64,000 bases of DNA from Candidatus Hydrogenedentota bacterium (GCA_013359265.1 JABWCD010000005.1:73678-137677), one strand, 5' to 3'. Positions 39,274 to 48,695 are shown, numbered from the stretch's first letter. Notes: generated by a model not told the origin, from the sequence alone. Numbers and translations: made by a program.

Positions 39274-39314
39274 CGAAAAATGGTCGGGGCGACTGGATTC
39301 GAACCAGCGACCCC
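39274..39314 (-). repeat. Partial 3' fragment of tRNA-Pro (T-arm, acceptor 3' strand and CCA, plus 6 nt of flank): att-like direct repeat marking the distal end of the island
   Basis: A 41-nt block exactly identical to 48611-48651, followed by weaker similarity. No complementary 5' acceptor strand is present, so this is not a functional tRNA. Confidence 0.8.
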
Positions 39315-39485
39315 TGCCCAGGCTGCACGATGTGCGCAGTGCACCGCCATAGAACGTCCTTTCGTTGGCCCGCCTCAATCTTGATCCGCCAGCGCACACC
39401 CTGTTACATATCAGTCTAACGGGTGCATGGCGTGTCGGGCGCAGGCAATGACCGTCCCCCGTTGGGATTCGAGTGGGGAGAATTC

Positions 39486-42400
39486 ATGGCCGAGAAGCCC
39501 AATCCTAGAAGCGAGCCGCGCGGCAAAGACCTGTTCATTGTCGACAACAGCGACACGGACTGGAAGGTCAAGAGCTACCTCCAGGAATGGACAGAGGTCG
39601 CGCATCAGTTCGACATTGCCACGGGATATTTCGAGGTGGGCGCACTGCTTGCGCTGGACGGTCAGTGGCAGAAGCTCGACAAGGTCCGCATTCTCATGGG
39701 CGACGAGGTCAGCCTCCGCACCAAACGTGCTTTCACAAACGGACTCGCCAAGGTCGAAATGGCGCTCGACGCGAGCATCGAAAAGGAAAAAGAAACGAAC
39801 GACTTTCTCCACGGCGTACCGGGGATTGTCGAGGGCATTCGGTCGAACAAAATCGAGTGCCGCGTCTACACGAAAGACAAATTCCACGCCAAGGCCTTTA
39901 TCACCCACGGCAAGCTCGCCGTTGTCGGCTCGACCGCCTTGGTCGGCTCCAGCAACTTCACTTACCCGGGTCTGACGGACAATGTCGAGCTGAACGTCCA
40001 GATTCAGCGCGAGGTCAAGGACCTTCAAGAGTGGTACGAACGCCACTGGAACGAAGCGAAGGACGTTTCGGAAGATGTCCTCCGCGTCATCGAACGCCAC
40101 ACGCGCGAGTTCACGCCCTTCGAGGTATACGTCAAGGCGCTTCAGGAGTTCTTCCGAGGCCACGAACTGACGGCATCGGAATGGGAACTGACCAAATCGC
40201 TGATGTACCCCAAACTGGATCAATACCAGAAAGAGGGCTACCACGCGCTGCTCAAAATCGCCATGCAACACAAGGGCGCTTTTCTCTGCGACGGCGTCGG
40301 TTTGGGCAAGACGTTTATCGGCATGATGCTGATCGAACGCCTCACGATGTTCGACCGCAAACGTGTCGCGCTATTCGTCCCAAAGGCTGCTCGCAAGCCA
40401 GTCTGGGAAGCCGCGCTCAGAAAGTATCTGCCCAATCTCGGCGGGGACTTTACGAACCTTGTGATTTACAACCACACCGACTTGCAGCGGGGCGGCGAAT
40501 ATCAGTCGCGCTTGGCCCGACTGAAAGACATGGCTGACGTGGTGATAATCGACGAAGCGCATCACTTCCGCAATCCCGGCGTAAAGGGCGAAGGCACGAA
40601 GCGGCCCTCACGGTACTGGCACATGTTTGACCTGTGCGAAGGCAAGACGGTGTTCATGCTCACCGCGACGCCCATCAACAACAGTCTACTCGACTTTCAG
40701 CACATGATCGAGCTGTTCAGCCGCCGCGAGTCGGCGTATTTCCAGAACACAGTCGGAATCCATTCCCTCGCTGGCCATTTTCGCAAGCTGGAGAAGGCGC
40801 TGGAACGCGCCGTTGGCATCGGCGTGGAACAGATGGAACTGCCCATCGAAGTGAATCAGGCGGAAGCCGCCGAAGTCATTACCGGCGATCCCCTCCTGAC
40901 AAAGCTGGTCGTGCAGCGCAGCCGCGCCTACGTGCGTAAGAGCCAAGAACAACACGACGGGCGGACAGCCATTTTCCCCGAACGCCAGGCCCCGCAGGTC
41001 GCGGATTACTCGATCAAGAAAACATACGGGCGCTTGTTGAAAATGCTTGAGGACGCATTCAACAAGGAAAAGCCGCTATTCTCGCTCGCCATCTACTACC
41101 CATTGGCCTACTACAAAGGGCCGAACGACGCGATTGACACCAAGCTGGAAAACCGGCAAAAGCAGGTCGTCAGCCTGATCCGCACGCAGTTCCTAAAGCG
41201 ATTCGAAAGCTCGGCGCGCGCGTTCCAAATGTCTTGTCAGGCGCTGATGCTCAAGCTGCTTGCCTTCGCGACAAAGCACAGCACGTCGATCACCGAGAAA
41301 CACCGGCTGGAACGGTGGAAGGGACAACACGAGGACCTCATCGGATACGTCCGCGAGCATCAGCACGAATTCTGGGGCGACGCGGAGGAAGACGACGCGG
41401 ACGCGGACATCATCACCGATGAAATGATGGAAGACATCGACGAACTTCACGAAGACGAGTACAACATCGATGAAATCCTGTCCGAAACTTTCCTCGACCT
41501 CGACCAGGTCGCCGCATTCCTTCAGGAACTACAGAAGTTCAAGCCATCGCACGACGACAAGCTGAAGGCCCTCGTGAAACTGCTGAAATCAGACCCCGTG
41601 CTCAAAGAGCACAAGGTTATTATCTTCTCCGAATACATGGCGACGGCTCGCTATCTCAGGAAGCAACTGGAAGAACAGGGCTTTACCCGCGTCGACGAAG
41701 TGGACTCCGCCAGCAAGAAAGACCGGGGCGTGGTCATCACCCGCTTCGCGCCGTACTACAACGATTCGTCGTCGGGAAAGCTGGCGGAGGAGGGTCACGA
41801 TGAAACGGGCATCCTTATCGCCACGGACGTGCTCTCCGAAGGCCTGAACCTCCAGGACGCGACGCGGCTCATCAATTACGACCTCCACTGGAACCCTGTC
41901 CGCCTCATGCAGCGCATTGGCCGCGTGGACCGCCGCATGAACCCGGATGTCGAGGCCGCGATTCTCAAGGACCATCCGGAACAAGAGAAGATTCGCGGCA
42001 AGGTCGCCTACTGGAACTTCCTGCCCCCGGACGAACTGGACGAACTGCTCCGGCTGTATTCGCTCGTGTCGCACAAGACGCTGAAGATTTCGAAAACGCT
42101 CGGTATCGAAGGCAAAAAGCTGCTCCGGCCCGAAGACGACTACGAGGCCCTGAAAGACTTCAACCACGCCTACGAAGGCACGCCCAGCGGCGACGAGGCA
42201 ATGCACCTCGAATACCAGCGACTATTGAAGGAACACCCCGGTTTGGAGGAACGGCTAAACGCGTTGCCCAAGCGGGTATTCTCCGGGAAGGAACACCCTA
42301 AGCCGGGCACCAAGGCCGTCTTCTTCTGTTTCTCGCTGCCCGCGTTCGATACCAGCGTGAAACTCGAAGAGGGCGATCCGGAAACGAACGCCTGGACAGA

Positions 42401-42647
42401 CGACGCGGGCCTCACGCAGTGGTATCTGTACGATCTGGCGACCGAAAATATTCACACCGACGCTGCCGAAATCTTCACAGTGATCCAGAGCGAACCGGAC
42501 ACGCCACGACACCGATCCGTGACGGACGAGACGCTTTCCGAAATTCGCGCTAAGGTTGAAAGACACGTCAAGAACACATACTTCAAGCAAGTTCAGGCTC
42601 CGGTCGGAGTTCGGGCCACGCTCAAATGCTGGATGGAACTAAGCTAG
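39486..42647 (+). CDS. Fusion protein: N-terminal PLD-family nuclease domain plus SNF2-family (SF2) helicase
   Basis: HxK PLD motif (FHAKAFITHGK...GSSNFT). SNF2 Walker A (LCDGVGLGKTF), DEAH box (VIIDEAHHFRNP), helicase-C (ILIATDVLSEGLNLQDA...QRIGRVDR). GGGGAGA RBS before the ATG at 39486. Confidence 0.8.
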   Translation: MAEKPNPRSEPRGKDLFIVDNSDTDWKVKSYLQEWTEVAHQFDIATGYFEVGALLALDGQWQKLDKVRILMGDEVSLRTKRAFTNGLAKVEMALDASIEKEKETNDFLHGVPGIVEGIRSNKIECRVYTKDKFHAKAFITHGKLAVVGSTALVGSSNFTYPGLTDNVELNVQIQREVKDLQEWYERHWNEAKDVSEDVLRVIERHTREFTPFEVYVKALQEFFRGHELTASEWELTKSLMYPKLDQYQKEGYHALLKIAMQHKGAFLCDGVGLGKTFIGMMLIERLTMFDRKRVALFVPKAARKPVWEAALRKYLPNLGGDFTNLVIYNHTDLQRGGEYQSRLARLKDMADVVIIDEAHHFRNPGVKGEGTKRPSRYWHMFDLCEGKTVFMLTATPINNSLLDFQHMIELFSRRESAYFQNTVGIHSLAGHFRKLEKALERAVGIGVEQMELPIEVNQAEAAEVITGDPLLTKLVVQRSRAYVRKSQEQHDGRTAIFPERQAPQVADYSIKKTYGRLLKMLEDAFNKEKPLFSLAIYYPLAYYKGPNDAIDTKLENRQKQVVSLIRTQFLKRFESSARAFQMSCQALMLKLLAFATKHSTSITEKHRLERWKGQHEDLIGYVREHQHEFWGDAEEDDADADIITDEMMEDIDELHEDEYNIDEILSETFLDLDQVAAFLQELQKFKPSHDDKLKALVKLLKSDPVLKEHKVIIFSEYMATARYLRKQLEEQGFTRVDEVDSASKKDRGVVITRFAPYYNDSSSGKLAEEGHDETGILIATDVLSEGLNLQDATRLINYDLHWNPVRLMQRIGRVDRRMNPDVEAAILKDHPEQEKIRGKVAYWNFLPPDELDELLRLYSLVSHKTLKISKTLGIEGKKLLRPEDDYEALKDFNHAYEGTPSGDEAMHLEYQRLLKEHPGLEERLNALPKRVFSGKEHPKPGTKAVFFCFSLPAFDTSVKLEEGDPETNAWTDDAGLTQWYLYDLATENIHTDAAEIFTVIQSEPDTPRHRSVTDETLSEIRAKVERHVKNTYFKQVQAPVGVRATLKCWMELS

Positions 42648-42671: not shown

Positions 42672-43163
42672 ATGCCGTATCGAATCACTGAGAAACTTCA
42701 GGGGGTGAAGGTTTCGGCGGGTACACTGGCCAACGCCGTGTCAACCATCCAAGGTGCAAAAGGTGGCGTTCCCGTATTCAGCTTTGCCAAGGGTGAGTTC
42801 GAACTTCGGCGACTCGATGTTGCAGTCACCATACCCGCCACCGGTGCATGGCCCGGCCCCGTCCAAGTTCGCGTGGCACAACTGCCACGTTTGAAAAAGT
42901 ACTTGGATTTGAAGTCCCTGGACGCGGAAATCGATATTTTGCCCACGCTAAGAGCGTTGAGGATTGGCGAGATTCAGGTTCCTTGCACGTGGCGCGCTAG
43001 GGCGTATGAAATCTTACGGGGCGCAACTGTAATTACATCGCCGGAACACCGACGCAAGTTCGAAGAGGTGGACAAAATAATTGGGAGCAAGTACGCCGCT
43101 CAAGCGATGAAAGATGCGGTCAACCCAAAAGAAGATGAAGAATGGCGCGAGACACTATTCTAA
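42672..43163 (+). CDS. Hypothetical 163-aa protein, second gene of the island cassette
   Basis: GGGGA RBS; 25 nt downstream of the helicase gene; its 3' end overlaps the methyltransferase start by 22 nt. Confidence 0.5.
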   Translation: MPYRITEKLQGVKVSAGTLANAVSTIQGAKGGVPVFSFAKGEFELRRLDVAVTIPATGAWPGPVQVRVAQLPRLKKYLDLKSLDAEIDILPTLRALRIGEIQVPCTWRARAYEILRGATVITSPEHRRKFEEVDKIIGSKYAAQAMKDAVNPKEDEEWRETLF

Positions 43164-46100
43164 GCATCGTTGATTTCCCTAGCCTTGTTACCTTCCTGGC
43201 CGACGAACTCGATTGGCCAATCGAGGACGACCAGTTTGACGACCTCGATGCGCTGGCATTCGACTACACGCCGGACGAACTCAACTTGCCGGACGAACTC
43301 CATGCCCGCGTGCGCAACGTCAAACAAATGCGCCCGCTCACGACCAACCAGCCGTGGGCGGTGTTCTACGTCGAGTTCGAGTCGAAGCGCCTGCCCCTTA
43401 CCGCGCTCCGCCGCATTCTGAATCGGTTCGTCGAGAAAAAGCGCACGTCCGCCGGTGACCGTGTCACGTGGAAAATGCAAGACCTCCTGTTCGTGAATGC
43501 CCACGGCGACGGCGAAGATCGGGGCATGACCTTTGCCCACTTCTCGAAGCCGGACGCGGGCTACACCGCCGTCATGCGCGAGTTCATGTGGACGCGCAAA
43601 GAAACGCACTTGGCCCATATTCACAATTATATCGAGTGCCTCCACTGGCCGGATGACGGTACGAGCCAGAAAGACTGGCGCGAGCAGTGGCGTTCGGCCT
43701 TTGTCGGCTCGAAGCGAAAAGCCATCCGGGACTCGAAAGAATTGGCCCAGGAAATGGCGCACTTCGCGCGGGACGTGCGCAAGCGCGTCGGTGAAGTGCT
43801 GGACATTACGCGCAAACGGCAGTTTGAGCCATTGCAGCAACTGTACAAGGCATTCAAGACGCTCTTAATCCATGACCTGTCGGAGGACGATTTCGCCGAC
43901 ACCTACGCGCAGACCCTTGCGTATGGACTGTTTGCGGCGCGCGCGGCCCATCCCAACGAATCATTTGACGTGGCCCACGCGCCGGAGCGCATTCCGCCTA
44001 CAAATCCTTTCCTACAGGGCCTATTCGCGCAGTGCTTGGGTCTGACAAAGGTTGGCGGTGGGAAGATCGACATTGAAGAAATCGGCGTGGGCCGATTGGT
44101 TGAACTCTTCGAGGGCCTGCGCCCCGAGGATACGACACGCATTCTCAACGAATTCGGGTCGCAGACCGGCGATCCAGTCATTCACTTCTACGAGGAATTC
44201 CTGACGGAATACGACAAGCGGAAGAAGGTTCAGCGCGGTGTGTTCTACACGCCCAAGCCGGTCGTGTCCTACATCGTGCGCAGCGTACACGAATTGCTTC
44301 AGACCGAGTTTGGGCTTGAGGACGGTCTTGCTTCGACCGATACGTGGGCAGATATGGCCGCACGATTTCCGAAATTAAAGATTCCGGATGAAGTAAACTC
44401 GAAATCCGCTTTCGTACAAATTCTCGATCCCGCTACCGGCACCGCCACCTTCCTCGTGGAGGTTATCGAAGTAATTCATCGCACACTGACCGAGCGGTGG
44501 AAGCGCGAGAAGGTTTCCGCGCAACAGCAGCAGGTCCTGTGGAATCAGTATGTCGTCAAGCACCTTCTTCCGCGACTCCACGGCTACGAACTCATGATGG
44601 CCCCCTACACCATCGCCCACATGAAAATTGGGCTGAAGTTGAGAGAACTGAATTTCACCGCACTCCAATCACTTGGTGCGAATGACCGGGTTCGAGTATA
44701 TCTCACAAATGCGCTAGAAGAACCTGACGATGCAAGCGGTCAAGCGCAAATCGAACAATGCACCCCCGCGCTCGCGCGAGAAGCCACTGAGGTTGGAAAG
44801 ATTAAGCGTGGCACGGTTTTTACAGTTGTAATTGGTAATCCGCCATACTCCGGGATATCGGCCAATCTGTCAACTGCAATGCGCCGCAGTGTCGACCCGT
44901 ACCGTTTTGTGGATGGCGATCCAATTAGGGAAAAAAGTGCGCTCCAATTCGAGAAGAATCTCAACGACGATTATGTGAAGTTTTTTCGTTTTGCCGAGAA
45001 GCAAATAGAGAAACGAGTTGGTCTTATCGGCCTCATCACAAACAATGGCTATCTGGAAAGCGCGACCCTGCGTGGCATGAGGAATCACTTGCTGCAATCG
45101 TTTGGTCGGCGTTGGTTCCTAGATCTGCATGGTGATGCTGACAAGCGAGAGCGTGATGAACTGGACCAGACAGACGAGAATGTCTTTGAGATAAAGCGCG
45201 GGGTTTGCATCGCACTCCTCGTTCGCCGTCCGAAGATCCATCTAGCCGACAACGAGTTGTTCAGACAGGACATACGAGGAAGTTCTGGGCACAAGTATCA
45301 TTGGCTAACCACTAATTCGATTTTGTCCACGCGGTTTTCTGCATTCGCAGCTAGAGAACCAAACTACTATTTCTTTGCGCGCAACGCCGAAACGGAGGCC
45401 GAATATAACCAAGCGATTCCTATGGTCGAACTTTATGGAATAAACTCGACCGGCTTTGAATCTGGACGTGACGAGATCCTTACCGACTTTACTGCAATGG
45501 AACTTCGATCCAAACTTGTGCATTTTGCGACGTCACCAAAGGACGAGATTGTCCAAAGGTACTCTGTTTCCGAAGCGTGGGGAAAGAAACTATTCGATGA
45601 AAGGGCGACCATCGTCGCGGAAAAGGATTTTGCGAGGCATATCACGCCTTTCTTGTTTGGCCCTTTCGACTTGCGATACTGCTTCTACCGAAAAGACCTC
45701 TTGAAGACAAACAGTCACAGCGCGGGGAAACATCTCCTTGCAGGACAAAATGTTGCCCTGATGGTAATGCGGCAAGTCTCCATTGATGGCCCATTTACGC
45801 ATATTGGCGTGTCCAAAGTCATTCCAAACAACCGGTGTTTCTATAGTACCAAAGGGAAAATCTCATATTTTCCGCACGAACTCTTAGCTGGTGATCGAGA
45901 CCTGCCGTATTCGAGAGATCGATTTGTAGGATCTAACTTCAGACCGCAGGCATTGGCGCGAATCAAACGTCTTCTTAAACCCCACCAATCTGAGACCGAA
46001 CTCTCTGATCGAGCAGTGTTCGACTATGCTTACGCGGTGTTTCACAGTCCCGGCTACAGGAGCCGCTACGCGGAGTTTTTGAAGACCGATTTCCCGCGCT

Positions 46101-47158
46101 TGCCGTTAACCGGGAACCTGGAACTGTTCGGCGCGCTGGCCCGGCTCGGCGGCGAACTCGTCGCTCTGCACCTGCTGGAATCGCCCAAGCTCGACAAACC
46201 AATTACCGAATTTATTGGTGGGCGGAATCCCGAGGTCGAAAAGGTCTCGTGGTCGAATAACACCGTGTGGGTGGACAAGGCACAGACCACCGGCTTCCAG
46301 GGCGTGCGCGAGGACGTGTGGAACTTCCATGTCGGCGGCTATCAGGTCTGTGAGAAATGGCTCAAAGACCGCAGAGGCCGCACGCTGTCGGACGACGACA
46401 TCGCGCACTACCACAAAATCGTCGTCGCGCTCACCGAGACCATCCGGATCATGAAGGAAATCGATGAGGTCATCGACCAACACGGCGGCTGGCCCGGCGC
46501 TTTCTTGACGGGCAATTCCGCGGCGACGGTCCCCCCGGAAGCATCCGAGACAGTAGATCTCACATCAGCAAATAACGAACCAGAGTCACCCTGCGCCGCC
46601 GCCGATGAACCTGATCTGTTTTCATCCGTCGAGTCAGTCGGCTCCGACGAACTGGAGGGCGCCGCCGAGGAGTTGCCGGAAGTGCAGGACGAGGACGATG
46701 CGCCAAGTTATCGTCCGATCAGCGAGGTGCCGCGCGAGGAAGTGCTGTGCGCGGTGCGTAAGATACTCACCGCCGAATCGCCCTTGGACCGGGACGACCT
46801 GCTGAAACGCCTAGCCGAAGAGTTCGGTTATCAGCGGCTCGGCCCGAAGGCGCGCGACTTGCTCGAAGACGATCTGAAGACGGCAGTGCGCCGTGGCATC
46901 GCCAAGCGTAACAGCAACGAATACTCGCTGATCGCGCGCGGCATCAACGGCTACAACCGCAACTGGCTCAAAGACTGTTTCGTCAGCGCAACGGGCCGCA
47001 CGTGGATTTCCCGCGAGGACGCCATCCGCCAGTTTGCGCGGCACCTCGGATTCGCCCGCACCGGCAGCGCTATCGAGGACATGGCCCGCTCCCTCATTAA
47101 AGGCCTCCTCCGCGAGGGGCGGCTCGAATCCGACGGCCCGAATATTCGACGGGTGTAG
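43142..47158 (+). CDS. Giant (1338 aa) gamma-class N6-adenine DNA methyltransferase, type IIG/ISP- or BREX-PglX-like, with acidic linker and extra C-terminal domain
   Basis: Motif order FYTP (X), then ILDPATGTATFL (I), then VIGNPPYSG (IV). Long central/TRD-like region, an acidic linker ELEGAAEELPEVQDEDD, and a ~150-aa C-terminal domain. Confidence 0.75.
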   Translation: MARDTILSIVDFPSLVTFLADELDWPIEDDQFDDLDALAFDYTPDELNLPDELHARVRNVKQMRPLTTNQPWAVFYVEFESKRLPLTALRRILNRFVEKKRTSAGDRVTWKMQDLLFVNAHGDGEDRGMTFAHFSKPDAGYTAVMREFMWTRKETHLAHIHNYIECLHWPDDGTSQKDWREQWRSAFVGSKRKAIRDSKELAQEMAHFARDVRKRVGEVLDITRKRQFEPLQQLYKAFKTLLIHDLSEDDFADTYAQTLAYGLFAARAAHPNESFDVAHAPERIPPTNPFLQGLFAQCLGLTKVGGGKIDIEEIGVGRLVELFEGLRPEDTTRILNEFGSQTGDPVIHFYEEFLTEYDKRKKVQRGVFYTPKPVVSYIVRSVHELLQTEFGLEDGLASTDTWADMAARFPKLKIPDEVNSKSAFVQILDPATGTATFLVEVIEVIHRTLTERWKREKVSAQQQQVLWNQYVVKHLLPRLHGYELMMAPYTIAHMKIGLKLRELNFTALQSLGANDRVRVYLTNALEEPDDASGQAQIEQCTPALAREATEVGKIKRGTVFTVVIGNPPYSGISANLSTAMRRSVDPYRFVDGDPIREKSALQFEKNLNDDYVKFFRFAEKQIEKRVGLIGLITNNGYLESATLRGMRNHLLQSFGRRWFLDLHGDADKRERDELDQTDENVFEIKRGVCIALLVRRPKIHLADNELFRQDIRGSSGHKYHWLTTNSILSTRFSAFAAREPNYYFFARNAETEAEYNQAIPMVELYGINSTGFESGRDEILTDFTAMELRSKLVHFATSPKDEIVQRYSVSEAWGKKLFDERATIVAEKDFARHITPFLFGPFDLRYCFYRKDLLKTNSHSAGKHLLAGQNVALMVMRQVSIDGPFTHIGVSKVIPNNRCFYSTKGKISYFPHELLAGDRDLPYSRDRFVGSNFRPQALARIKRLLKPHQSETELSDRAVFDYAYAVFHSPGYRSRYAEFLKTDFPRLPLTGNLELFGALARLGGELVALHLLESPKLDKPITEFIGGRNPEVEKVSWSNNTVWVDKAQTTGFQGVREDVWNFHVGGYQVCEKWLKDRRGRTLSDDDIAHYHKIVVALTETIRIMKEIDEVIDQHGGWPGAFLTGNSAATVPPEASETVDLTSANNEPESPCAAADEPDLFSSVESVGSDELEGAAEELPEVQDEDDAPSYRPISEVPREEVLCAVRKILTAESPLDRDDLLKRLAEEFGYQRLGPKARDLLEDDLKTAVRRGIAKRNSNEYSLIARGINGYNRNWLKDCFVSATGRTWISREDAIRQFARHLGFARTGSAIEDMARSLIKGLLREGRLESDGPNIRRV

Positions 47159-47207: not shown

Positions 47208-48317
47208 ATGCCATACAGGCCAAAGGAAGAATTTGTCCAAATGGCTAAGCAGGTGGTGGTAACGGGAAGGCCGCTCACTATTTCCGTGCGACAGTTGTTG
47301 GAGTTCTTTTGGCAGGAAAGGCGCGGCAAATACGTTACTCGGTACATTCGGAGCAAACTAACGAGTCTGGGGGTCGAGACGGATCCTCCATTTGAAGATG
47401 AACATATTGACGGTATAATCAAACTCTTTCCGCGGGAAAAGCGGGGCCCGGGCCGACCACCAAAAGCTGGTAAGAAAACGCCCGGTGCCGTTGCTGTGGT
47501 ACCACCTGCCCTTGTCGTAAACGATACGGAGTCGAGCCCCGTTATCGAGGAAAATATCCCGGTCGAAGATTCGGTTGAAGATGAGCGCCGCTCGTACTTG
47601 CCCATTTCGCTATTGAGCGCAGCAAACCGAAAGCCTGTGAGTGTGCGTCCAGGCGATGAGATTGAAACGGTCGTGTTCCAATTAATGTCCGAAGGACTCG
47701 CTCATTTGCCCGTGTTACGGGATTCTAGAAGTCCTGAGGGAATCATCACTTGGCAATCATTGGGCAAGGCAAACGCGGGTGGCGATCCTCCGAAGACCGC
47801 AAGAGAGTGTTTGGATGTCGACGTCCGTGTTGTCGGCTTGGATACGCCGCTGTTCGATGCTGTTAGGGACATCATCAAAAGCGGCGTAGTATTGGTGCGG
47901 AACAAGAGCAATGAGATATGCGGCATGCTCACGGCGCAGGACATCGCGGAGCAGTTCGTTGCGCTCTCTGAACCTTTTTTGTTTCTCGAACAGATCGAGA
48001 ACCATCTTCGTAATTTGTTGATTCGTGCCAAGCTCTCGCAACAAGAACTGAATTCTTTTATTGATCCGGCCGACAAAAGAAGAACTCAAGGAAAAATAAC
48101 CGTAGATGACCTGACCTTTGGCGAGTATTTGCGGGCGATGTCGAAGGAAGAGGTTTGGTCGCGACTAGCACTTAGAATTAATCGGAAGCTGTTCATCGAT
48201 CGGATGGATAAAGTGCGCGAGATCCGAAATAGCGTAATGCATTTTCATCCGGATGGAATTTCAGATGGCGATCGTGAACTGCTCGCCAAAACGCGTGAAA
48301 TGCTACAAGGTCTGTAA
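47208..48317 (+). CDS. CBS-pair / HEPN-domain protein with AT-hook (putative nucleotide-sensing RNase effector)
   Basis: AT-hook KRGPGRPPKAGKK; two CBS-like segments (ETVVFQLMSEGLAHLPVL; LFDAVRDIIKSGVVLVRN); C-terminal HEPN Rx4H motif REIRNSVMHFH. Confidence 0.6.
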   Translation: MPYRPKEEFVQMAKQVVVTGRPLTISVRQLLEFFWQERRGKYVTRYIRSKLTSLGVETDPPFEDEHIDGIIKLFPREKRGPGRPPKAGKKTPGAVAVVPPALVVNDTESSPVIEENIPVEDSVEDERRSYLPISLLSAANRKPVSVRPGDEIETVVFQLMSEGLAHLPVLRDSRSPEGIITWQSLGKANAGGDPPKTARECLDVDVRVVGLDTPLFDAVRDIIKSGVVLVRNKSNEICGMLTAQDIAEQFVALSEPFLFLEQIENHLRNLLIRAKLSQQELNSFIDPADKRRTQGKITVDDLTFGEYLRAMSKEEVWSRLALRINRKLFIDRMDKVREIRNSVMHFHPDGISDGDRELLAKTREMLQGL

Positions 48318-48529: not shown

Positions 48530-48616
48530 GCCATGCAAGTCGAAAGCGGAATTTGTGGCACTTGCGAAGCAGCAAGTTCGAAAAACCGGACGTCGTGCAT
48601 GGGCAAGAGTGAAAAA
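48530..48616 (+). pseudogene. Remnant N-terminus of a paralog of the CBS/HEPN gene, running into the tRNA-Pro 3' end
   Basis: MPCKSKAEFVALAKQQVRKTGR aligns with MPYRPKEEFVQMAKQVVVTGR of the 47208 gene (12/22 identical). The reading frame continues into tRNA sequence. Confidence 0.5.
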
Positions 48617-48695
48617 TGGTCGGGGCGACTGGATTCGAACCAGCGACCCCTTGCCCCCCAGGCAAGTGCGCTAAACCGGGCTGCGCTACGCCCCG
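48617..48695 (-). tRNA. tRNA-Pro (anticodon GGG), CCA encoded
   Basis: Manual fold: acceptor CGGGGCG/CGCCCCG, D-arm GCGC..GCGC, anticodon stem CTTGC/GCAAG with loop CTGGGGG (anticodon GGG, G37), T-arm GCTGG-TTCGAAT-CCAGT, discriminator A, CCA. Confidence 0.8.

What the first reader, a model, noticed from the sequence alone, without database searches (positions are those of the whole stretch)
43142..47158. 1338-aa gamma-class N6-adenine methyltransferase with acidic linker and novel C-terminal domain; start overlaps the upstream gene by 22 nt
Motifs occur in gamma-class order (FYTP, then DPATGTATFL, then NPPY). The 1338-aa size and the long regions on both sides of the catalytic core resemble type IIG/ISP enzymes or BREX PglX, yet no partner genes of those systems are present. 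A strongly acidic linker (about residues 1130-1180) separates a ~150-aa C-terminal domain of unknown function. The 22-nt overlap with the 163-aa gene suggests translational coupling and a fixed stoichiometry between the two products.
Basis: partly seen in the sequence, partly recalled or inferred. Interest (0 to 1): 0.7.

Follow-up and report, generated by a model that had tools for sequence, protein, structure and literature searches.

The report
Methyltransferase subunit of split restriction system
This gene encodes the DNA-recognising, DNA-marking half of a widespread but experimentally untested two-gene restriction-modification system whose other half (a motor-plus-nuclease protein) lies just upstream; it is a fairly ordinary defence gene on a small mobile island, not a partner-less enzyme with a novel domain.

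Summary
The 1338-aa ORF (43142-47158, +) is real, and its gamma-class motifs, acidic linker and 22-nt overlap are as described.

- **Partner gene.** The gene immediately upstream (39486-42647) encodes a PLD(HKD)-nuclease + SNF2-ATPase. In 58 of 59 related loci whose methyltransferase keeps the N-terminal ~185-aa domain, a full-length homologue of this protein is present, usually about 19 nt upstream. Relatives without that domain carry an MmeI-type PD-ExK nuclease head instead and have no helicase.
- **C-terminal domain.** It is not novel. It is two winged-helix repeats (Pfam DUF3320), present in about half of close relatives.
- **163-aa ORF.** It is an orphan, absent from all 80 related loci, so there is no comparative support for a fixed stoichiometry with it.
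- **Island.** All four genes, including a DS-11 CBS-HEPN defence gene, lie on a 9.3-kb island with no integrase, flanked by a perfect 41-nt tRNA-Pro repeat.

[quoted passage not shown] It is catalogued computationally, and I found no experimental study. Interest is moderate.

The parts
39275..39315 (.). Left copy of a 41-nt perfect direct repeat (attL-like); left boundary of the 9.3-kb island
   Evidence: repeat family D1: identical to 48611-48651
39486..42647 (+). Partner gene encoding a PLD(HKD) nuclease (about res 61-209 of the 1074-aa GTG-start form) + SNF2-family ATPase + conserved C-terminal region. The ATG at 39486 is the likely start; the longest ORF starts at GTG 39423.
   Evidence: Pfam PLDc_2, ResIII, SNF2-rel_dom and Helicase_C. 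PADLOC C3a139 'HKD+Snf2', E 4e-56. H155/K157/G175-S176/N178, Walker A, DEAH and motif VI are invariant in 49/49 homologues. Homologue alignments begin at about res 22-34 and the Logan gene calls give 1053 aa.
42672..43163 (+). Orphan 163-aa ORF inserted at the helicase-MTase junction; overlaps the MTase start by 22 nt
   Evidence: Only its own record is found in 5.8e9 proteins. Absent from 80 related loci. No Pfam, PADLOC or NCBIfam hit; one weak sub-threshold PHROG match (phrog_23742, E 0.017). Weak coding signal in frame 0.
43142..43696 (+). MTase N-terminal domain (res 1-185), specific to the helicase-coupled clade. α/β fold with weak REase-like similarity; candidate docking module for the PLD-SNF2 subunit.
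43697..44176 (+). Region of res 186-345, shared with the single-chain MmeI-like relatives
   Evidence: Group-B relatives match from residue ~185 onward.
44177..45241 (+). Gamma-class N6-adenine MTase catalytic domain (res 346-700): FYTP 368, DPATGTATFL 429, NPPY 566
   Evidence: Pfam N6_Mtase and Eco57I. Motif positions. Invariant motif columns.
45242..46504 (+). Target-recognition domain (res 701-1121; Pfam Type_ISP_C covers 764-1106). Hypervariable, low-GC part at res 701-960; conserved part at res 961-1121.
   Evidence: Type_ISP_C E 3e-65. 30% versus 72% mean identity and GC 0.47-0.49. Alignment to DrdV, LlaBIII and LlaGI.
46505..46717 (+). Acidic, non-conserved linker (res 1122-1192), probably disordered
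   Evidence: 19 D/E and 1 K/R. 16% identity to homologues.
46718..47158 (+). C-terminal tandem winged-helix module (res 1193-1338, two DUF3320 repeats) plus stop codon
47208..48317 (+). Neighbouring independent defence gene on the same island: DS-11-type CBS + HEPN protein
   Evidence: NCBIfam NF053863, 293 bits against a cut-off of 260. Pfam CBS. DS-11 validated as a one-protein system in PMC13092281. Found next to the MTase in only 1 of 80 related loci.
48611..48695 (-). tRNA-Pro(ggg) (48617-48695). Its 3' part is the right copy of the 41-nt repeat (48611-48651); right boundary of the island.

Best explanation
The 1338-aa protein is the modification-and-specificity (Mod-like) subunit of a two-gene, ATP-dependent restriction-modification system. 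The restriction (Res-like) subunit is the PLD-nuclease/SNF2-ATPase encoded directly upstream.

Shown here:
- The MTase has intact gamma-class catalytic motifs and a Type-ISP-type target-recognition domain with a hypervariable segment.
- The partner has invariant PLD, Walker A, DEAH and motif VI residues.
- The two genes are nearly always adjacent across many bacterial phyla and one archaeal MAG.
- The MTase's first ~185 residues occur only in the helicase-linked clade. They replace the PD-ExK nuclease head of the single-chain MmeI-like relatives.

Inferred:
- The MTase binds a short asymmetric site through its TRD and methylates one adenine, marking self DNA.
- On unmodified sites, its N-terminal domain recruits or activates the PLD-SNF2 subunit, which translocates on dsDNA.
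- Each chain has only one HKD motif, so a nuclease active site needs two chains, as in BfiI, SauUSI and MANTIS MtsD. Cleavage would therefore require a dimer or two converging complexes, giving Type ISP/Type III-like dependence on site orientation.
- The acidic linker and tandem winged-helix tail form an optional accessory module, absent in about 30% of close relatives. It is more likely regulatory or DNA/protein-tethering than catalytic.
- The 163-aa ORF is a lineage-specific insertion at the junction, not a core subunit.
- The unit arrived, together with a DS-11 gene, on a 9.3-kb island integrated at tRNA-Pro.
For: Domains and motifs.

Partner architecture and 49/49 invariance of its catalytic residues.

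Synteny: 59 loci keep the N-domain and 58 have the helicase.
- 57 have it upstream on the same strand, 47 of them with an estimated gap of 40 nt or less (mode about 19 nt).
- One locus (L045) has it immediately downstream.
- The one exception (L043) has only 17 nt of upstream contig.

The 16 loci whose MTase matches only from residue ~185 have no such helicase. Thirteen of them were aligned and carry an invariant PD55..E69-x-K71 head.

The N-domain lies at the extreme N-terminus of MTase-sized proteins or their fragments in 148 of the 150 best listed hits, from 660 representative clusters at E<=0.001.

Two 5'-truncated MTases (L039, L055) lack both the N-domain and the helicase.

TRD hypervariability. 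Mobile-island and defence context.

Mechanistic precedents: Type ISP (PMC3874165); the MANTIS MtsD dimer with one PLD site acting downstream of an MTase complex, and SauUSI (bioRxiv 10.64898/2026.09.23.753747).
Against: - No experiment or methylome is available for this organism or, as far as I found, for any family member.
- Physical interaction between the N-domain and the helicase is inferred from co-occurrence only. No fused helicase-MTase protein appears among the 150 best listed hits of 660.
- In MANTIS the MTase needs two extra proteins to methylate. Nothing shows that this MTase is autonomous.
Confidence: 0.72

Rival explanations
1. The protein is a self-contained type IIG/IIL enzyme with nuclease, MTase and TRD in one chain. 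Its N-terminal domain is an active, non-canonical PD-(D/E)xK nuclease, and the SNF2 protein is an accessory or a separate system.
Against: There is no conserved aspartate at a PD position next to the E80-x-K82 strand. Profile-profile comparison with the true MmeI-type head gives 0.6% probability. Foldseek and a profile search against PDB sequences find nothing. The domain never occurs without the helicase where the context is readable, and the helicase's own PLD site is invariant.
Confidence: 0.12
2. The locus is a fragment or minimal form of a larger methylation-based defence system (BREX, DISARM class 1, MANTIS/Gao_RL or Hma) that needs further subunits encoded elsewhere.
For: There are weak PADLOC/NCBIfam hits to PglX, DrmMI, DrmD, BrxH and HmaA. 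MANTIS also pairs an N6-MTase with a PLD-SF2 effector.
Against: The island is delimited by 41-nt repeats and contains only four genes. None of them is PglZ, BrxC, DrmA, DrmB, MtsA (DUF499) or MtsB (DUF3870). All hits to those systems' models fall far below the curated cut-offs and cover only generic catalytic cores. The two-gene unit recurs in 58 loci. tblastn with the window's other genes found them in none of these except DS-11 in one; a conserved third gene was not systematically screened for.
Confidence: 0.08
3. It is an orphan or regulatory methyltransferase (epigenetic regulator). The helicase serves another role such as transcription or repair, like the SNF2 protein RapA, and the pair has no defence function.
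For: The closest solved sequence relatives of the ATPase are RapA and poxvirus NPH-I. Winged-helix tails are common in regulators.
Against: The ATPase is fused to an invariant PLD nuclease site. The TRD is hypervariable. The locus is a horizontally acquired island at a tRNA gene, next to a validated defence gene. Distribution is patchy across distant phyla and includes an archaeon.
Confidence: 0.05
4. It is a three-component system in which the 163-aa product is a true subunit or regulator, translationally coupled to the MTase.
For: Tight packing: the ORF starts 24 nt after the helicase stop and overlaps the MTase start by 22 nt. There is a weak frame-0 coding signature. Small, rapidly evolving proteins do accompany HKD-SF2 helicases in Pbe/CxC systems (PMC10853773).
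Against: The ORF is an orphan in 5.8e9 proteins and is absent from all related loci, including the closest one, L003 (52% overall, 67% in the N-domain), where the gap is about 9 nt. Other loci carry unrelated insertions at the same junction.
Confidence: 0.05

Closest known systems
Type ISP R-M enzymes (LlaGI, LlaBIII; PDB 5FFJ, 4XQK)
   Same: Homologous gamma-class MTase and TRD (Pfam Type_ISP_C E 3e-65; phmmer E 5.5e-23 and 2.9e-20 over roughly res 422-1034). A nuclease and an SF2-type motor are combined with an MTase-TRD. The expected behaviour is an asymmetric site, one-strand methylation and translocation-dependent cleavage (PMC3874165).
   Different: ISP enzymes are single polypeptides with an N-terminal Mrr-type PD-QxK nuclease and a non-SNF2 SF2 motor. 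Here the nuclease and motor are on a separate protein, the nuclease is PLD/HKD, the motor is SNF2-family, and the MTase has its own unrelated N-terminal domain and an optional winged-helix tail.
MmeI-family type IIL/IIG enzymes (DrdV, PDB 7LO5; BpuSI, 3S1S)
   Same: DrdV is the closest solved sequence relative (E 8.6e-28, res 424-1012). The 'group B' relatives found here match from residue ~185 to the end of the TRD.
   Different: Those enzymes are ATP-independent single chains with an invariant PD..ExK head and no helicase neighbour. The window protein has a different head with no profile similarity and an obligatory PLD-SNF2 neighbour.
Type III R-M (Mod + Res, e.g. EcoP15I)
   Same: A two-gene organisation: one subunit carries MTase and specificity, the other an SF2 ATPase and a nuclease. 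One-strand methylation of asymmetric sites and dependence on site orientation are known properties of the class (PMC12707154).
   Different: In Type III, Mod is beta-class, Res carries a C-terminal PD-ExK nuclease and a non-SNF2 motor, and the gene order is mod-res. No sequence relationship to Type III was detected here.
MANTIS / Gao_RL (MtsABCD), bioRxiv 10.64898/2026.09.23.753747
   Same: An N6-adenine MTase is paired with an N-terminal-PLD + SF2-ATPase effector. That effector dimerises to form one PLD site and acts downstream of MTase-based recognition of asymmetric, hemimethylated sites.
   Different: MANTIS needs a DUF499 AAA+ ATPase (MtsA) and a DUF3870 protein (MtsB) for methylation. 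Neither is present on this island. The MTase here has a Type_ISP_C TRD.
SauUSI (type IV, PLD + helicase + TRD)
   Same: An N-terminal single-HKD PLD nuclease is fused to an ATP-dependent motor, and the active site forms by dimerisation.
   Different: SauUSI is a single protein that targets modified cytosines through its own SRA-type TRD and has no MTase. No sequence match to it was found.
DUF3320 tandem wHTH tails of giant conflict-system helicases (MTES_1575 type; PADLOC PDC-S37; NCBIfam ProA)
   Same: The C-terminal 150 aa match DUF3320 twice, PDC-S37 positions 1373-1541 of 1550 (E 8.6e-9) and ProA 1764-1830. The pair of ~65-aa wHTH domains was described in PMC3710099.
   Different: There the tail follows SF1 helicase and Vsr-type REase modules. 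Here it follows an MTase-TRD through an acidic linker. No function has been tested in either context.

Membership tests
Gamma-class N6-adenine DNA methyltransferase | Motif order X (FxTP), then I (DPAxGTGxF, AdoMet binding), then IV (NPPY) | tested here: met
   FYTP 368, DPATGTATFL 429, NPPY 566. Motif columns are invariant in 25 homologues. Pfam N6_Mtase and Eco57I.
Type ISP R-M enzyme | C-terminal Type-ISP-type target-recognition domain | tested here: met
   PF18135, 220.9 bits against a cut-off of 25.9, covering 2-342 of 342 profile positions.
Type ISP R-M enzyme | Single polypeptide that also carries the nuclease and the helicase-like ATPase | tested here: not met
   The 1338-aa protein has no ATPase domain. 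The ATPase and nuclease are on the separate upstream protein. No fused form appears among the 150 best listed representative hits.
Type ISP R-M enzyme | Mrr-family PD-(Q/E)xK nuclease | tested here: not met
   The system's clear nuclease is PLD/HKD (PLDc_2; invariant HxK..GSxN).
Type IIG/IIL (MmeI-like) enzyme | N-terminal PD-(D/E)xK nuclease head with a conserved D..ExK triad in the same chain | tested here: inconclusive
Type IIG/IIL (MmeI-like) enzyme | Acts alone, without an ATPase partner | tested here: not met
   A helicase-nuclease neighbour is present in 58 of 59 loci of this clade. Activity itself was not testable.
BREX (PglX) | Co-occurrence with PglZ and BrxC/PglY | tested here: not met
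   The island holds four genes and none matches PglZ or BrxC. The BREX_2 PglX model scores 19 bits against a cut-off of 400.
DISARM class 1 (DrmMI + DrmD) | Presence of DrmA and DrmB (DUF1998) core genes | tested here: not met
   Neither is on the island. DrmD models score 127 bits against a cut-off of 610, and DrmMI gives only E 1.3e-6.
MANTIS / Gao_RL | MtsA (DUF499 AAA+) and MtsB (DUF3870) alongside the MTase and the PLD-helicase | tested here: not met
   Neither gene is present. ORF163 has no Pfam hit even at E <= 1.
Split PLD-SNF2 + ISP-like MTase two-gene module (the clade defined here) | N-terminal ~185-aa domain on the MTase and an adjacent PLD-SNF2 gene with intact catalytic motifs | tested here: met
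Functional R-M system | Sequence-specific m6A methylation of host DNA and restriction of unmodified DNA | not testable with these tools
   This needs methylome data or heterologous expression.
DUF3320 / winged-helix | Three-helix plus beta-hairpin wing fold, in a tandem pair | tested here: met

The most novel reading that the evidence does not exclude
The PLD-SNF2 + ISP-like-MTase pair may be a distinct, experimentally unexplored class of two-subunit ATP-dependent R-M systems. In this reading, a decayed nuclease-fold head on the MTase has been repurposed as the docking and activation switch for a trans-acting motor-nuclease. The interchangeable C-terminal tails (tandem winged-helix, LexA-like S24 peptidase, or both) would be sensory modules that tune restriction, for example to DNA damage or to the state of an invader's DNA. 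That would be a regulatory layer not known for classical R-M systems.
Probability: 0.2. Interest if true: 0.65.

Novelty: new variant of a known kind. Interest (0 to 1): 0.4.

Why it matters
The clade is large. The N-domain appears in about 660 representative clusters at 50% identity, and at least 598 loci occur among species-representative genomes from many phyla and one archaeon. Annotation pipelines label the MTase 'type ISP' or 'type IIG', names that do not distinguish it from the single-chain enzymes, so its obligate motor-nuclease partner goes unnoticed.

Recognising the pair has three practical consequences:
- It corrects annotation. The NCBI record of this very protein is truncated by 144 aa.
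- It predicts that the MTase cannot be cloned or knocked out independently of the upstream gene without toxicity or loss of restriction.
- It offers a minimal two-protein model for how MTase-based recognition hands over to a PLD-helicase effector. That step is still unresolved in MANTIS and related BREX-like systems.

For this particular window, the result is mainly that the finding is explicable and fairly ordinary.

Tried and rejected
- **Spatial clustering of D41/E80/K82/D114.** I wanted to test this on the model, but coordinates are not exposed to scripts.
- **Rosetta-stone test.** I looked for a fused helicase-MTase protein. None appears among the 150 best listed hits of 660.
- **ORF163.** Homologue search, tblastn against the window and 80 loci at E <= 10, comparison with ORFs inserted at the same junction elsewhere, and Pfam, PHROGs, PADLOC and NCBIfam gave only chance-level matches. 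The other contigs encoding it are the same organism.
- **DS-11 as a conserved third or fourth component.** Rejected: it is present in 1 of 80 loci and is documented as a one-protein system.
- **BREX, DISARM, MANTIS or Hma membership.** Rejected on missing core genes.
- **First structure submission.** One fragment alignment misaligned in the low-complexity linker and was redone.
- **Rfam over the island.** Only the tRNA was found. The promoter and terminator scan was not above shuffled expectation.

Full report
**Observation.** The window contains an ATG-initiated ORF at 43142-47158 (+) of 1338 codons.
- An in-frame TGA lies one codon upstream of the ATG, so the ORF cannot be longer.
- The first 144 residues are conserved across homologues, so it should not be shorter. 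The identical NCBI record (P0001, a Candidatus Hydrogenedentes MAG) is annotated from Met145 (1194 aa) and is therefore truncated. Independent gene calls on Logan contigs use the long form.
- FYTP, DPATGTATFL and NPPY lie at residues 368, 429 and 566. This is the gamma-class order, and the motif columns are invariant in 25 homologues.
- Residues 1122-1192 contain 19 D/E and 1 K/R.
- The 163-codon ORF 42672-43163 overlaps the MTase start by 22 nt.

The descriptive part of the finding is confirmed, apart from the claims that no partner gene is present and that the C-terminal domain is novel.

**Domain content.**
- Pfam finds N6_Mtase/Eco57I (346-662), Type_ISP_C (764-1106, E 3e-65) and DUF3320 (1195-1237).
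- PADLOC's best model is a 'type IIG REase-MTase' profile (E 1e-186). The last 160 residues match the C-terminus of candidate PDC-S37.
- The closest solved proteins are DrdV (7LO5, MmeI family), LlaBIII and LlaGI. All align only from about residue 422 onward.
- Hits to PglX and DrmMI are marginal and limited to the catalytic core.

**The partner gene.** Directly upstream, ORF 39423/39486-42647 encodes a PLD (HKD) domain, an SNF2/ResIII ATPase core, Helicase_C and about 210 further residues.
- PADLOC calls it 'HKD+Snf2' (C3a139, E 4e-56).
- It has one HKD motif per chain: H155-x-K157 ... G175-S-x-N178.
- I fetched 80 loci encoding relatives of the MTase from species-representative genomes and searched them with the window's neighbouring proteins.
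- In 59 loci the MTase matches from residue 20 or earlier, and 58 of these contain a full-length homologue of the PLD-SNF2 protein (39-64% identity).
- 57 have it upstream on the same strand, 47 of those with an estimated intergenic distance of 40 nt or less (mode about 19 nt).
- One locus (L045) has it immediately downstream. The single exception (L043) has only 17 nt of contig upstream.
- In an alignment of 49 homologues, H155, K157, G175, S176, N178, the Walker A GxGKT, DEAH and motif VI QRxGRxxR are all invariant.
- The clade spans Proteobacteria, Acidobacteriota, Planctomycetota, Chloroflexota, Firmicutes and other phyla, plus a Hadarchaeota MAG.

**The N-terminal domain.** Sixteen of the 80 loci encode MTases that match the window protein only from about residue 185, and none of them has the helicase.
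- Their N-termini (~140-145 aa in the 13 aligned; longer ORF extensions in three others) carry an invariant G-x-P-D55 ... E69-x-K71 signature (13 aligned). This is the MmeI-type PD-(D/E)xK head.
- On plasmids only this single-chain form was found, and PGAP names it 'type ISP restriction/modification enzyme' as well.
- The window protein's residues 1-185 are a different domain. It has no Pfam or PHROG match, no PDB sequence match and no profile similarity to the MmeI-type head (hhalign probability 0.6%).
- AlphaFold2 with 51 sequences gives a confident α/β model (pLDDT 80.5, pTM 0.80). Its main elements, in order: helix 12-23, strands 39-42, 57-63 and 73-79, helix 86-103, strands 115-121, 128-135 and 144-151, then two helices.
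- D/E41, E46, K61, E80, K82, R90, R91, K99-R101, D114, R127 and H133 are 94-100% conserved. There is no canonical PD aspartate preceding the E80-x-K82 strand.
- I could not access coordinates to test whether these residues form a site.
- In 1.84 billion representative proteins the domain is found in 660 clusters (E <= 0.001). In 148 of the 150 best hits listed it sits at the extreme N-terminus of ~1030-1555-aa proteins or fragments of them. No helicase-MTase fusion appears among them.
- Two loci with 5'-truncated MTases (L039, L055) have lost both the domain and the helicase.

My reading is that the domain is probably a remodelled REase-like head that now serves to couple the MTase to the trans-acting motor-nuclease. 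An active non-canonical nuclease is not excluded.

**The C-terminal part.** Residues 1186-1338 fold with pLDDT 94.9 into two consecutive three-helix plus beta-hairpin units.
- Pfam DUF3320 matches twice.
- Anantharaman et al. 2013 already described DUF3320 as a pair of ~65-aa wHTH domains at the end of giant helicase-nuclease conflict proteins (PMC3710099).
- Among the 119 closest homologues, 57 have this tail, 35 have none, 9 have a LexA-like S24 peptidase tail and 12 have both.
- Linkers are not conserved in sequence (16% identity) and are generally net acidic. The window's linker is more acidic than the family average.

The tail is therefore an optional accessory module and not a new domain. 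Its role is untested; regulation, or DNA or protein tethering, are the likely options.

**The 163-aa ORF.** It has no homologue apart from its own record in 5.8 billion proteins.
- It has no hit in Pfam, PADLOC or NCBIfam, and only one weak sub-threshold PHROG match (phrog_23742, E 0.017). It is absent from all 80 loci even at E <= 10.
- The other contigs carrying it are the same organism.
- GC by codon position and codon-usage similarity weakly favour frame 0, so it may be expressed.
- In the closest relative with context (L003), helicase and MTase are about 9 nt apart.
- A minority of loci carry unrelated insertions at the same junction: DUF3800; AAA_21 + DUF4276; AAA + S8 subtilase; and IS21 inside the helicase. 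This echoes the insertion hotspot reported inside the hma operon (PMC11232893).

The 22-nt overlap is real. The conserved coupling, however, is between helicase and MTase, not between ORF163 and the MTase.

**Context.** A perfect 41-nt direct repeat (39275-39315 and 48611-48651) reproduces the 3' part of tRNA-Pro(ggg) at 48617-48695.
- The 9.3-kb interval holds exactly four genes: the helicase-nuclease, ORF163, the MTase and a 369-aa CBS protein (47208-48317).
- The CBS protein passes the curated NCBIfam cut-off for the DS-11 anti-phage protein (293 bits against 260). DS-11 is a validated one-protein CBS+HEPN system (PMC13092281).
- No integrase is present.
- The flanks are housekeeping genes: HAD hydrolase and enoyl-CoA hydratase on the left, PP2C and holA on the right.
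- DS-11 accompanies the pair in only one other locus, so it is a co-resident and not a subunit.
- Within the MTase gene, GC falls to 0.47-0.49 exactly over the hypervariable TRD segment (res 701-960, 30% identity). The conserved flanks have GC 0.58-0.63. This suggests exchange of specificity modules.

**Mechanism (inferred).** The pair is best read as a split, two-subunit, ATP-dependent R-M system.
- The MTase-TRD subunit recognises an asymmetric site and methylates one adenine, by analogy with Type ISP, MmeI-type and Type III enzymes.
- At unmodified sites it engages the PLD-SNF2 subunit through its N-terminal domain, and the SNF2 motor translocates.
- One HKD motif per chain cannot form a PLD active site alone. 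This is established for BfiI and SauUSI and was seen in the MtsD dimer of MANTIS. Cleavage should therefore need a dimer or two converging complexes, which would produce a preference for inverted site pairs.
- MANTIS shows that an MTase-centred recognition complex can license a PLD-SF2 effector. It requires two further proteins that are absent here.

**Comparison and novelty.** The MTase is homologous to Type ISP and MmeI-type enzymes but fails the defining single-polypeptide criterion of both. The system also lacks the core genes of BREX, DISARM, MANTIS and Hma.
- The clade is already captured by PADLOC and NCBI models and names.
That is absence within the searched library only.
- I rate it a new variant of a known kind: an ATP-dependent R-M system with an unusual subunit composition. 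The specific finding is of moderate interest, because the features flagged as strange (no partner, novel domain, coupling to ORF163) all have ordinary explanations.

Noticed in passing
window 39275-39315 and 48611-48651 (tRNA-Pro 48617-48695, - strand): A perfect 41-nt direct repeat duplicates the 3' part of tRNA-Pro(ggg). It delimits a 9.3-kb island that holds only the four defence-related genes and no integrase.
   Followed up: partly
window 47208-48317 (+): A 369-aa CBS-domain protein passes the curated NCBIfam cut-off for the DS-11 anti-phage protein (CBS + HEPN). An RxxxxH motif ('RNSVMH') lies near its C-terminus. It is an independent one-gene defence system on the same island.
   Followed up: partly
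window 43142-43573: The public NCBI record of this MTase (P0001, 1194 aa) starts at Met145 and omits most of the conserved N-terminal domain. Homologue conservation supports the 1338-aa form.
   Followed up: yes
window 45242-46021 (MTase res 701-960): A low-GC stretch (0.47-0.49, against 0.58-0.63 in the flanks) coincides with the hypervariable part of the TRD (30% identity to homologues). This suggests recombinational exchange of the specificity module.
   Followed up: partly
L008:9125-9736; L070:3739-5597; L027:6143-9819; L028:6602-9346: In a minority of related loci the helicase-MTase junction, or the helicase itself, carries unrelated insertions: a DUF3800 protein, an AAA_21 ATPase + DUF4276 pair, an AAA ATPase + S8 subtilase pair, and an IS21 element. 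The junction looks like an insertion hotspot.
   Followed up: partly
proteins P0002, P0012, P0018, P0044, P0083 and others: Many close homologues of the MTase end in a LexA-like S24 peptidase domain (PF00717), alone (~1300 aa) or after the winged-helix pair (~1500 aa). An SOS-type self-cleaving module on an R-M methyltransferase is unusual and untested.
   Followed up: no
L041 (Candidatus Hadarchaeota archaeon MAG): The helicase-MTase pair also occurs in an archaeal MAG, with 58% (helicase) and 44% (MTase) identity to the window proteins. This implies inter-domain transfer, if the binning is correct.
   Followed up: no
plasmid hits H1-H12: PGAP's product name 'type ISP restriction/modification enzyme' is applied to single-chain MmeI-like enzymes that have neither a helicase domain nor a helicase partner. 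The name does not separate the two clades. No member of the helicase-coupled clade was found in PLSDB.
   Followed up: partly
L045:4238-10953: This is the only locus with inverted gene order: the PLD-SNF2 gene lies immediately downstream of the MTase, overlapping its end.
   Followed up: no
protein P0213: A 1731-aa protein gives 28 separate matches to N-domain residues ~110-158. It appears to be a repeat protein built from a similar beta-hairpin unit. This is unexplained.
   Followed up: no
window 39423-39486: The longest helicase ORF starts at GTG 39423. Homologue alignments begin at about residue 22-34, and independent gene calls use ATG 39486 (1053 aa), which is the likelier start.
   Followed up: partly
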